This document shows, in pieces, positions 43,503-44,882 of a DNA stretch of 64,000 nt. Origin of the DNA: Escherichia coli (lineage in GTDB: Bacteria > Pseudomonadota > Gammaproteobacteria > Enterobacterales > Enterobacteriaceae); assembly GCF_003790525.1 (NCBI RefSeq), contig NZ_CP033635.1; one strand, given 5' to 3'. The first letter of the stretch is position 1. The number at the start of each line of letters is the position of its first letter. Under the pieces are notes generated by a model. It was not told the origin of the DNA and searched no databases. It saw only the letters and a list, made by a program, of their open reading frames with translations. A program made the position numbers and the translations under genes.

Positions 43503-43745
43503 GAAAAAAGGCGACAGATTACTCTGTCGCCTTTTTTCCTGACTCATAACCCTTAACGGGTCTTACAATCCTTGCAGGCCGCCAACACACCCTGTTTTTC
43601 CATTAGCCGGAACAATCCGTGTTGATTCCATTTCCGTTTAATTACGTCTCCGGACGTTTGTCTTCCTGACAATCCTCTGTCTTCGCCTCCTGGCGCTCCT
43701 GACCCTCATCCTGAGTCATTGTTCCTGTTAGCGTCCTCGCTCTAT
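43503..43745 (-). ncRNA. csrC: CsrC small RNA (CsrA-sequestering)
   Basis: Reverse complement begins ATAGAGCGAGGACGCTAACAGGAACAATGACTCAGGATGAGGGTCAGGAGCGCCAGGAGG with multiple GGA motifs and ends in terminator GGCGACAGAGTAATCTGTCGCCTTTTTTCTT; matches remembered CsrC sequence and its position between engB and yihI. Confidence 0.9.
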
Positions 43746-44015
43746 GGGTGCTACTTTACGCCTTTGCTTTAAACAAACAATCAACCGCCATCAGTATTTG
43801 CACATTTTCAGAGTTTTATATAAAAGCAATTAACTGATTTATATAGCTTATTTGACATGCGTCGCAGAATTTTCTCTGCTATTTCGCATAAAGACTATCG
43901 GCAATGTCTCACAAAGCGTATGGCTTTTACTTACAACGCTCACGCCGAAAAATCCGCCTTTTATTATGGTTCAGGTATAATCGCCGCAAAGCTTTGACTG
44001 ACGGAGACGACCGCT

Positions 44016-44648
44016 TTGACTAATTTGAATTATCAACAGACGCATTTTGTGATGAGTGCGCCTGATATTCGCCACCTACCTTCCGATACCGGAATTGAAG
44101 TGGCTTTTGCAGGCCGTTCCAACGCAGGTAAATCCAGCGCGCTGAACACGCTGACTAACCAGAAAAGCCTGGCGCGGACCTCAAAAACCCCAGGGCGCAC
44201 CCAGCTTATCAACCTGTTTGAAGTGGCTGACGGCAAGCGTCTGGTTGACTTGCCTGGGTACGGTTATGCGGAAGTCCCGGAAGAGATGAAGCGCAAATGG
44301 CAGCGCGCGCTCGGCGAGTACCTCGAAAAACGTCAGAGCCTGCAAGGTCTGGTGGTGCTAATGGATATTCGCCATCCGCTGAAAGATTTGGATCAGCAGA
44401 TGATTGAGTGGGCGGTAGACAGCAATATCGCCGTGCTGGTGCTGCTGACCAAAGCGGACAAACTGGCAAGCGGCGCACGTAAAGCGCAATTGAATATGGT
44501 GCGTGAAGCGGTGCTGGCGTTTAACGGTGATGTGCAGGTTGAAACCTTCTCTTCACTGAAGAAACAAGGCGTGGACAAGCTGCGGCAGAAACTGGATACC
44601 TGGTTTAGCGAGATGCAGCCTGTAGAAGAAACGCAGGACGGCGAATAA
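44016..44648 (+). CDS. engB: Ribosome-biogenesis GTPase EngB/YihA (TTG start)
   Basis: 210 aa; G motifs [20 protein letters not shown]. Confidence 0.93.
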
Positions 44649-44669
44649 TTTTCTTGCCTTAATGCTTGT

Positions 44670-44748
44670 GCCGGATGTGGCGTATCCGGCCCGTAAATTC
44701 AATAGATTACACTTCTACCGTTGGCCTGATAAACATGGCGCATCAGGC
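44670..44748. repeat. REP palindromic elements
   Basis: GCCGGATGTGGCGTATCCGGC and GGCCTGATAAACATGGCGCATCAGGC read directly. Confidence 0.8.
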
Positions 44749-44773
44749 ATTACGGATCTTTTCTTTCGCCCAA

Positions 44774-44882
44774 TAAAAAACGCCCCAGTCATTACTGACT
44801 GGGGCGGCTAAAATATTCAGCCAAATCCGATTACGTGAAGTAAAAGGTCTGAAAGATAGAACATCTTACCTCTGTACCCTAC
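44774..44882 (-). ncRNA. spf: Spot 42 small RNA
   Basis: Reverse complement reads GTAGGGTACAGAGGTAAGATGTTCTATCTTTCAGACCTTTTACTTCACGTAATCGGATTTGGCTGAATATTTTAGCCGCCCCAGTCAGTAATGACTGGGGCGTTTTTTA; position downstream of polA. Confidence 0.95.

What the first reader, a model, noticed from the sequence alone, without database searches (positions are those of the whole stretch)
43503..44882. Two regulatory sRNAs flanking engB are both intact (CsrC and Spot 42)
CsrC (43503-43745, minus) shows its repeated GGA-containing CsrA-binding motifs and terminator; Spot 42 (44774-44882, minus) matches the remembered canonical sequence over its full length. Neither would be reported by an ORF-based pass, and the 190-aa ORF called for yihI (to 43497) runs up to the CsrC terminator, which supports the shorter yihI start at 43434.
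Basis: partly seen in the sequence, partly recalled or inferred. Interest (0 to 1): 0.2.

Follow-up and report, generated by a model that had tools for sequence, protein, structure and literature searches.

The report
CsrC and Spot 42 sRNA genes
The stretch holds two textbook E. coli regulatory RNA genes, CsrC (a decoy that soaks up the CsrA protein) and Spot 42 (a sugar-use regulator that also encodes a 15-residue protein), both intact on either side of engB/yihA, so the finding is correct but ordinary.

Summary
Confirmed and already known. Rfam models score both intervals far above threshold: CsrC 277.9 bits (cut-off 61) at 43492-43745(-), and Spot 42 122.8 bits (cut-off 80) at 44774-44892(-). 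The window is E. coli. The 1,551 bp around the finding are 100% identical to several complete genomes and occur in 5,425 of 5,426.

Mapped from the curated K-12 record, the genes are:
- csrC 43500-43745(-), 246 nt
- spf 44772-44882(-), 111 nt
- engB/yihA 44016-44648(+)
- yihI 42925-43434(-), 169 aa

Spot 42 and 131 nt of its promoter are identical to K-12. CsrC differs at one base (U144, window 43602), a common polymorphism found in 46% of genomes against 48% for the K-12 allele. CsrC has 14 GGA motifs, 11 of them in loops or linkers, and this is the densest GGA cluster in the window. The published UvrY site is present upstream.

The YihI profile begins at that ATG, and four other genera have in-frame stops 2-7 codons upstream.

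Two additions. Spot 42 also encodes the 15-aa protein SpfP (44817-44864). RefSeq places a spurious "frameshifted hypothetical protein" pseudogene inside csrC.

The parts
43500..43745 (-). csrC gene: CsrC sRNA, 246 nt by the K-12 annotation.
   Evidence: RF00084 at 277.9 bits against a gathering score of 61. 245/246 identical to K-12 b4457. 14 GGA motifs. Fold z = -6.98.
43501..43540 (-). CsrC intrinsic terminator: a 16-18 bp stem (AAAAAAGGCGACAGAG / CTCTGTCGCCTTTTTT region) followed by a U run.
   Evidence: Terminator scan. Helix 10 of the Rfam structure is 100% paired in 6 sequences from 5 genera.
43602..43602 (-). The only CsrC difference from K-12: U144 here, A144 in K-12, directly 5' of the GGA at nt 145-147.
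   Evidence: Alignment. The allele-specific 41-mer is present in 2,517 genomes (U) against 2,627 (A) of 5,426 complete E. coli genomes.
43753..43758 (-). Probable csrC -10 hexamer TAAAGT at -13 to -8, conserved in 5 genera.
   Evidence: Read from the sequence. GTAAAGTA is invariant in alignment A6. The assignment as the -10 element is inferred.
43896..43935 (-). UvrY (BarA-UvrY) upstream activating site of csrC: the 18-nt imperfect inverted repeat TGTGAGACATTGCCGATA (43913-43896, -168 to -151), plus the TGTAAG half-site 16 bp upstream (43935-43930).
   Evidence: Exact match to the sequences published for E. coli csrC in PMC4682653, located. TGTGAGA and TGTAAGT are conserved across genera.
44016..44648 (+). 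engB/yihA, a ribosome-biogenesis GTPase (210 aa, TTG start), the gene flanked by the two sRNA genes.
   Evidence: ORF list. TIGR03598 at 252.2 bits against a cut-off of 124. RefSeq annotation.
44772..44882 (-). spf gene: Spot 42 sRNA, 111 nt by the K-12 annotation and 109 nt (44774-44882) by the classical length.
   Evidence: RF00021 at 122.8 bits against a gathering score of 80. 111/111 identical to K-12 b3864. 5 base pairs with compensatory change across 7 genera, 0/500 shuffles.
44817..44864 (-). spfP: a 15-codon ORF inside Spot 42 (MFYLSDLLLHVIGFG plus stop).
   Evidence: Coordinates mapped from K-12 b4837 and the PGAP spfP call. The ORF is intact here and in 6 other genera, identical in 4 of them. 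Function described in PMC8916003.
44781..44806 (-). Spot 42 intrinsic terminator hairpin (CGCCCCAGTCAG/CTGACTGGGGCG), followed by U6.
   Evidence: Terminator scan. 4 covarying pairs in this helix.
44883..45013 (-). spf promoter region, identical to K-12 over 131 nt upstream of +1. It includes TAAAGT at -13 to -8 (44895-44890) and a CRP-consensus-like site TGTGATGGCTATTAGA at 44974-44959.
   Evidence: Alignment A2 and the motif scan. The CRP-like match has 2 mismatches, and 21 equally good matches occur in the window, so it is only a candidate.
42925..43434 (-). yihI (Der GTPase-activating protein), 169 aa from the ATG at 43434. The 190-aa TTG-initiated ORF reaching 43497 is not the gene.
   Evidence: K-12 and PGAP annotations. 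NF003560 aligns from residue 23 at model position 2. Upstream in-frame stops in 4 other genera.
43435..43499 (-). 65-nt spacer between the CsrC 3' end and the yihI ATG, strongly conserved, with an invariant TATACT (43468-43463) that is a candidate yihI -10 element.
   Evidence: Alignment A5 has 89% mean column identity over 5 genera, against 71% for the csrC upstream region. The promoter role is inferred, not shown.

Best explanation
The interval contains the two well-characterised E. coli small-RNA genes csrC and spf, both complete with promoter, body and terminator, on either side of engB/yihA.

CsrC is a protein-sequestering RNA. Its roughly 14 GGA motifs sit mostly in hairpin loops and single-stranded linkers. 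They bind dimers of the translational regulator CsrA and titrate it away from mRNAs. Transcription is activated by phosphorylated UvrY bound to an upstream inverted repeat.

Spot 42 is an Hfq-dependent base-pairing sRNA. It is made when glucose is available, because cAMP-CRP represses its promoter, and it represses mRNAs for using secondary carbon sources. It is dual-function: nt 19-66 encode the 15-aa protein SpfP, which binds CRP and reinforces the same circuit.

yihI starts at the ATG at 43434, 65 nt downstream of the CsrC 3' end.

Shown here: sequence identity to the curated genes, the covariance-model scores, motif statistics, terminators, presence of the UvrY site, conservation, and the yihI start. 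Taken from the literature and not tested here: CsrA binding, UvrY activation, CRP repression, Hfq dependence and SpfP activity.
For: Rfam CsrC scores 277.9 bits and Spot_42 122.8 bits, both as full-length model matches. The 1,551 bp are 100% identical to E. coli SMS-3-5 and others, and the locus is in 5,425 of 5,426 complete E. coli genomes.

The K-12 curated features csrC b4457, spf b3864 and spfP b4837 map onto the window with 245/246, 111/111 and 15/15 identity. GGA is enriched, with 11 of 14 motifs in loops or linkers of the Rfam consensus structure, and 10 of 14 are conserved column-for-column in all four other genera. Terminators are present and both folds are stable.

The UvrY inverted repeat and half-site are exactly as published. 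UvrY gSELEX peaks lie in the yihA/csrC spacer (PMC8249747). The yihA-csrC-yihI synteny is described as universal for csrC (PMC1488887).

Spot 42 homologs sit next to yihA in 6 other genera. The first 42 nt are invariant, there is one substitution in nt 1-53, and the 3' helices covary. SpfP function is described in PMC8916003. For the yihI start.
Against: Nothing found contradicts it, but there are limits.

No expression data exist for this strain. The covariation test for CsrC on six sequences is underpowered: 3 compensatory pairs, with 87/500 shuffles as good. Structural support for CsrC therefore rests on the Rfam model score and on 90% pairing against 39-47% when partners are slid.

The simple sigma-70 scan found no promoter anywhere in 42900-45100. 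That shows the scan is insensitive, since two experimentally known promoters lie there. The CRP operator of spf was not located with confidence.
Confidence: 0.97

Rival explanations
1. The csrC interval is a decayed protein-coding gene, as RefSeq/PGAP annotates it ('hypothetical protein; frameshifted; internal stop', window 43553-43719, minus strand), and not an RNA gene.
For: The PGAP pseudo-CDS is present in SMS-3-5, TUM1586 and many other genomes. A 74-aa hypothetical protein WP_001541209.1 is annotated at the homologous place in Salmonella.
Against: All three forward frames of csrC contain stops, and the annotated frame has two. The Salmonella ORF lies on the Salmonella CsrC hit, which scores 313 bits. 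Conservation follows GGA motifs and stems, not codons. K-12's curated annotation has only the ncRNA. CsrC is an experimentally established RNA (PMC4682653, PMC1488887).
Confidence: 0.01
2. YihI is really the 190-aa protein that starts at the TTG at 43497, so the yihI mRNA overlaps or reads through the CsrC terminator.
For: The ORF is open from 43497. The TTG lies just 3 nt beyond the annotated CsrC 3' end, so a read-through transcript would contain it.
Against: The extension is open only in E. coli; four other genera have in-frame stops 2-7 codons before the ATG. The YihI equivalog profile begins at the ATG. The TTG sits in the terminator's T-rich tail with no Shine-Dalgarno-like purine run before it (CGCCTTTTTTCTTTGC-TTG). 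Curated K-12 and PGAP both use the ATG. The conserved candidate -10 element TATACT lies downstream of the TTG.
Confidence: 0.02
3. The genes are present but one of them is functionally altered in this strain. In particular, the U144 change next to a GGA motif in CsrC would weaken or strengthen one CsrA-binding site.
For: One substitution relative to K-12 lies directly 5' of GGA 145-147, changing AAGGA to AUGGA.
Against: The U allele is carried by 2,517 of 5,426 complete genomes, about as many as the K-12 allele. Other genera have G at this position, so the position is simply variable. This GGA is in the paired 3' side of a helix in the Rfam structure, not in a loop. The other 13 GGA motifs are unchanged.
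Confidence: 0.05

Closest known systems
CsrC of Escherichia coli K-12 (b4457; Rfam RF00084, clan CL00106 CsrB/RsmB)
   Same: Same locus (yihA-csrC-yihI) and same orientation. 245/246 nt identical, with the same terminator, the same UvrY inverted repeat at -168 to -151, and the same 65-nt spacer to yihI.
   Different: One base differs (U144 for A144), a common allele in the species. There are three SNPs in the upstream spacer at -241, -116 and -87, all outside the published UvrY crosslinking core and the inverted repeat.
Spot 42 / spf of E. coli K-12 (b3864; Rfam RF00021) with its internal gene spfP (b4837)
   Same: 111/111 nt identical, SpfP 15/15 identical, located downstream of polA and convergent with yihA. 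The promoter is identical for 131 nt.
   Different: Nothing differs within the gene. There is a 1-nt indel 132 nt upstream, just after the polA stop, and two SNPs in the REP-like spacer towards yihA.
CsrB (RF00018), the paralogous CsrA-sequestering sRNA
   Same: Same mechanism and clan: GGA-rich hairpins, UvrY-activated transcription, a rho-independent terminator.
   Different: CsrB sits at a different locus (near syd), is longer (~360 nt, PMC4229854 table), has a near-perfect UvrY palindrome and depends on IHF (PMC4682653). The window's RNA scores as CsrC, not CsrB (the best clan member is kept).

Membership tests
CsrC (Rfam RF00084) | Scores at or above the curated gathering threshold of the covariance model over the full model length | tested here: met
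   277.9 bits against 61, model 1-255/255, E=1.2e-87.
CsrC (Rfam RF00084) | High concentration of AGGA/ARGGA (GGA) motifs, mostly in loops and unpaired regions (criteria listed in PMC1488887) | tested here: met
   14 GGA, 9 AGGA and 6 CAGGA. Shuffles reach these counts 13, 2 and 0 times in 2000. This is the densest GGA cluster in the 64-kb window. 6 motifs lie in hairpin loops and 5 in linkers of the Rfam structure.
CsrC (Rfam RF00084) | Rho-independent terminator at the 3' end | tested here: met
   18-pair stem plus T run at 43540-43501. 100% paired in 5 genera.
CsrC (Rfam RF00084) | Intergenic location between yihA and yihI | tested here: met
   yihA is 44016-44648(+) and yihI is 42925-43434(-). 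The synteny rule is stated in PMC1488887. The same arrangement holds in 4 other genera.
CsrC (Rfam RF00084) | Upstream UvrY/SirA binding site (csrC-type inverted repeat) | tested here: met
   TGTGAGACATTGCCGATA at 43913-43896, plus TGTAAG 16 bp upstream, exactly as published.
CsrC (Rfam RF00084) | Binds and sequesters CsrA; turnover via CsrD/RNase E | not testable with these tools
   Biochemical property, inferred from near-identity to the characterised K-12 RNA.
CsrC (Rfam RF00084) | Secondary structure supported by covariation | tested here: inconclusive
   6 sequences: 90.1% of cells paired against 39-47% when slid, but only 3 compensatory pairs, and 87/500 shuffles do as well.
Spot 42 (Rfam RF00021) | Scores at or above the gathering threshold over the full model | tested here: met
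   122.8 bits against 80, model 1-115/115.
Spot 42 (Rfam RF00021) | Three-hairpin architecture with a terminator hairpin and U tail, supported by covariation | tested here: met
   The MFE fold matches the Rfam structure. 99.4% of cells paired, 5 pairs with compensatory change, 0/500 shuffles as good.
Spot 42 (Rfam RF00021) | Conserved 5' base-pairing region and location downstream of polA | tested here: met
   The first 42 nt are invariant from E. coli to Aeromonas, with one substitution in nt 1-53. polA ends at 45030, 147 nt upstream of +1.
Spot 42 (Rfam RF00021) | Internal 15-codon spfP ORF (dual-function RNA) | tested here: met
   MFYLSDLLLHVIGFG at 44817-44864, identical to K-12 b4837. H10, the residue reported as needed for activity (PMC8916003), is present.
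Spot 42 (Rfam RF00021) | cAMP-CRP-repressed promoter | tested here: inconclusive
   The promoter is identical to K-12 over 131 nt, so the K-12 operator must be present. The only consensus-like site I found (2 mismatches, 44974-44959) is no better than 21 other sites in the window.
Spot 42 (Rfam RF00021) | Hfq binding and repression of galK and other targets | not testable with these tools
   Inferred from 100% identity to the characterised RNA.
YihI (Pfam PF04220 / NCBIfam NF003560) | The profile covers the protein from its N-terminus, which tests the start codon | tested here: met
   NF003560 scores 167.8 bits against 90, aligning residues 23-171 of the 190-aa ORF to model 2-156. PF04220 scores 185.9 bits. 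Model position 1 therefore corresponds to the ATG at 43434.

The most novel reading that the evidence does not exclude
The arrangement may be more than neighbourhood. csrC is always found with yihA and yihI, both regulators of 50S-subunit assembly GTPases. The 65-nt stretch between the CsrC terminator and yihI is more conserved across genera (89%) than the csrC promoter region (71%), and it contains an invariant TATACT. An unexcluded reading is that csrC transcription or termination directly modulates yihI expression, by read-through or promoter occlusion, and so couples the Csr carbon-storage circuit to ribosome biogenesis. A smaller variant of this idea is that the near 50:50 U144/A144 dimorphism next to a GGA tunes CsrA titration.
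Probability: 0.08. Interest if true: 0.35.

Novelty: already known. Interest (0 to 1): 0.05.

Why it matters
It matters little for discovery. CsrC and Spot 42 are among the best-studied bacterial sRNAs, and this copy is essentially the reference sequence.

It has modest practical value for annotation. ORF-driven pipelines miss both genes. RefSeq instead carries a false 'frameshifted hypothetical protein' pseudogene inside csrC in many E. coli genomes. A mechanical longest-ORF call would over-extend yihI by 21 codons into the CsrC terminator tail. The 15-aa SpfP gene inside Spot 42 is annotated in only some records.

Tried and rejected
(1) The sigma-70 consensus scan of 42900-45100 returned 0 promoter-like sites. 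I rejected it as evidence of absence because two experimentally established promoters (csrC, spf) lie in that region.

(2) The inverted-repeat finder on 44640-44780 returned nothing at minimum length 8. The REP-like palindromes there have 7-nt arms and are visible by eye.

(3) The CsrC covariation count on 6 sequences was not significant against shuffles. I kept it as 'inconclusive' and did not claim support from it.

(4) The search for a CRP operator by consensus gave one 2-mismatch site at about -84.5, no better than background. I did not assert it.

(5) The PLSDB 'plasmid' copies of the locus are 4.8-5.4 Mb records or chromosome fragments. I rejected them as evidence of plasmid-borne csrC/spf and used them only as a source of cross-genus homologs.

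(6) I first took the window to be strain SMS-3-5, which is 100% identical over 1,551 bp. However, the rrn spacer has two tRNAs in the window against one tRNA-Glu in that RefSeq record, so strain identity is not asserted.

(7) Technical failures with no biological content: file name; input too short, or stops in the translation; search-term syntax.

(8) The expensive protein and metagenome searches, structure prediction and custom covariance models were deliberately not run, because the answer did not depend on them.

Full report
OBSERVATION. A gathering-threshold Rfam scan of the whole window gives CsrC (RF00084) at 43492-43745 on the minus strand with 277.9 bits (threshold 61, E=1.2e-87, model 1-255 of 255). 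It gives Spot 42 (RF00021) at 44774-44892 on the minus strand with 122.8 bits (threshold 80, E=3.6e-24, model 1-115 of 115) (repeated for Spot 42). Each RNA ends in a pattern-detected intrinsic terminator. Each folds far better than dinucleotide shuffles (z = -6.98 and -5.08).

ORGANISM AND REFERENCE COORDINATES. Window 43400-44950 is 100% identical to at least 15 complete E. coli genomes, including SMS-3-5, and the locus is present in 5,425 of 5,426 complete E. coli genomes. The curated K-12 record annotates, in the same order and relative orientation: polA, spf (111 nt) containing spfP (15 aa), yihA, csrC (246 nt), yihI (169 aa) and hemN. Transferring these by alignment gives csrC 43500-43745(-), spf 44772-44882(-), spfP 44817-44864(-), yihA/engB 44016-44648(+) and yihI 42925-43434(-). 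Its 3' ends are 3 and 2 nt short of the K-12 feature ends, which is within the uncertainty of terminator 3' ends; 109 nt is the classical Spot 42 length (PMC8916003). The Rfam Spot_42 hit begins 10 nt upstream of the real +1, and two model base pairs use nt -2 and -1.

INTACTNESS. Spot 42 is 111/111 identical to K-12, and so are the 131 nt upstream of its +1. CsrC is 245/246 identical. The single difference is U for A at RNA position 144 (window 43602), immediately 5' of a GGA. Allele-specific 41-mers centred on that base find the U allele in 2,517 complete genomes and the K-12 A allele in 2,627. Other genera have G there. It is therefore an ordinary polymorphism, not a lesion. The three SNPs in the yihA-csrC spacer lie at -241, -116 and -87, outside both the UvrY inverted repeat and the promoter-proximal crosslinking region published for K-12.

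CsrC ANATOMY. The RNA has 14 GGA, 9 AGGA and 6 CAGGA motifs. Mononucleotide shuffles reach these counts in 13, 2 and 0 of 2,000 trials. The window average is about 3 GGA per 243 nt, and the densest 243-nt stretch on either strand of the 64 kb is csrC. Projected on the Rfam consensus structure, 6 GGA lie in hairpin loops, 5 in single-stranded linkers and 3 partly in stems. Ten of the 14 are conserved column-for-column in Citrobacter, Salmonella, Klebsiella and Enterobacter, and each of the other four is lost in only one genus. The published UvrY site of E. coli csrC, TGTGAGACATTGCCGATA, is present exactly at 43913-43896 (-168 to -151), together with the TGTAAG half-site 16 bp upstream (PMC4682653). 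An independent gSELEX study places a UvrY peak in the yihA/csrC spacer (PMC8249747). The location between yihA and yihI is the rule for csrC homologs (PMC1488887). A covariation count on six sequences is underpowered: 90% of cells pair, against 39-47% with slid partners, but there are only 3 compensatory pairs and 87/500 shuffles do as well. I record that test as inconclusive.

Spot 42 ANATOMY. Homologs next to yihA were found in six further genera, out to Proteus and Aeromonas. The first 42 nt are invariant in all seven sequences, with a single substitution before nt 53. Variation is concentrated in the two 3' hairpins, where 5 pairs show compensatory changes (0/500 shuffles reach this; 99.4% of cells paired). 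The invariant 5' part carries the 15-codon ORF spfP (MFYLSDLLLHVIGFG). It is intact here and in all seven genera, identical in five and with 1 or 3 substitutions in Proteus and Aeromonas. Spot 42 is a dual-function RNA and not purely non-coding.

THE yihI START. The mechanical ORF runs from a TTG at 43497 (190 aa). That TTG lies 3 nt beyond the annotated CsrC 3' end, inside the T-rich terminator tail, with no purine-rich ribosome-binding sequence before it. Three independent lines support the ATG at 43434:
- Both curated K-12 and PGAP use it, giving 169 aa.
- The NCBIfam YihI equivalog aligns model position 2 to residue 23 of the long ORF, so position 1 is the ATG.
- In Citrobacter, Salmonella, Klebsiella and Enterobacter an in-frame stop lies 2-7 codons upstream of the annotated ATG, so the extension is open only in E. 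coli.
In addition, the 65-nt spacer is unusually conserved (89% mean column identity over five genera, against 71% for the region upstream of csrC). It contains an invariant TATACT at 43468-43463, 28 nt before the ATG and downstream of the TTG. I infer, without proof, that this is the yihI -10 element.

MECHANISM (literature, not tested here). CsrC titrates CsrA dimers through its GGA sites and so relieves CsrA-mediated control of mRNAs. Its synthesis is driven by BarA-UvrY. Spot 42 is repressed by cAMP-CRP, pairs with mRNAs of secondary-carbon-source genes with the help of Hfq, and encodes SpfP, which inhibits CRP. Because the sequences here are identical or one base different from the characterised genes, and the regulatory DNA is conserved, the same mechanisms are expected with high confidence.

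RIVALS. The RefSeq/PGAP view of the csrC interval is a 'hypothetical protein; frameshifted; internal stop' pseudogene at window 43553-43719. This is an annotation artefact. All frames contain stops. The likely template is a 74-aa hypothetical ORF annotated on top of Salmonella CsrC. The long YihI form and a functional effect of U144 are both unlikely, for the reasons above.

VERDICT. The finding is correct in observation and interpretation, and it describes already known genes in their reference form. Its value is confined to annotation hygiene. The only mildly open question I noticed is whether the conserved terminator-to-yihI spacer reflects functional coupling between csrC and yihI.

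Noticed in passing
window 43553-43719 (-): RefSeq/PGAP annotates a pseudo-CDS ('hypothetical protein; frameshifted; internal stop') inside csrC in SMS-3-5, TUM1586 and apparently many other E. coli genomes. The likely template is the 74-aa Salmonella hypothetical protein WP_001541209.1, which overlaps Salmonella CsrC (L006 810-1034 against CsrC 749-1003). This is an annotation artefact.
   Followed up: partly
window 43602 (-), CsrC nt 144: A U/A dimorphism directly 5' of a GGA motif. The U allele is in 2,517 and the A allele (K-12) in 2,627 of 5,426 complete E. coli genomes. Other genera have G.
   Followed up: yes
window 43435-43499 (-), esp. 43463-43468: The spacer between the CsrC terminator and yihI is more conserved across five genera (89%) than the csrC promoter region (71%). 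It holds an invariant TATACT 28 nt before the yihI ATG, a candidate yihI promoter immediately after the csrC terminator.
   Followed up: partly
window 43753-43758 (-) and 44890-44895 (-): csrC and spf carry the same probable -10 hexamer TAAAGT at the same distance (-13 to -8) from their +1. The simple sigma-70 scan reported no promoter in 42900-45100, so it misses both known promoters.
   Followed up: no
window 44670-44690 and 44724-44748: Two REP-like imperfect palindromes lie between the engB stop and the Spot 42 terminator: GCCGGATGTGGCGTATCCGGC and GCCTGATAAACATGGCGCATCAGGC. Two of the three differences from K-12 in the spf region alignment fall in or next to them.
   Followed up: no
window 57270-57342 and 57388-57461 (-), rrn operon 53978-59071: The 16S-23S spacer holds two tRNAs in the window. 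The RefSeq record of SMS-3-5, identical over the finding, has a single tRNA-Glu and a spacer 83 nt shorter. The window therefore comes from another strain or carries a different rrn spacer type.
   Followed up: no
window 36607-36714 (-), 34649-34717 (-), 12787-12829 (-), 7643-7701 (+), 57100-57199 (-): Other Rfam hits above threshold: ES222 (about 82 nt upstream of typA, probably its leader), STnc370 (at the typA 3' end), ES036/CssrF, a SECIS_3 selenocysteine insertion element, and StyR-44 next to the 23S rRNA 5' end.
   Followed up: no
PLSDB records NZ_CP141089.1, NZ_CP134663.1, NZ_OL790696.1, CP125156.1 and others (loci L005-L010): The 'plasmid' records that carry the csrC-yihA-spf locus are 4-5 Mb replicons or 0.15-1 Mb pieces with chromosomal housekeeping genes. 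They appear to be mislabelled chromosomes or fragments, not true plasmid-borne copies.
   Followed up: partly
window ~49153-50582 (mapped from NC_010498.1 4338982-4340411): yihF is annotated as a frameshifted pseudogene in the SMS-3-5 RefSeq record. I did not check whether the window shares the frameshift.
   Followed up: no
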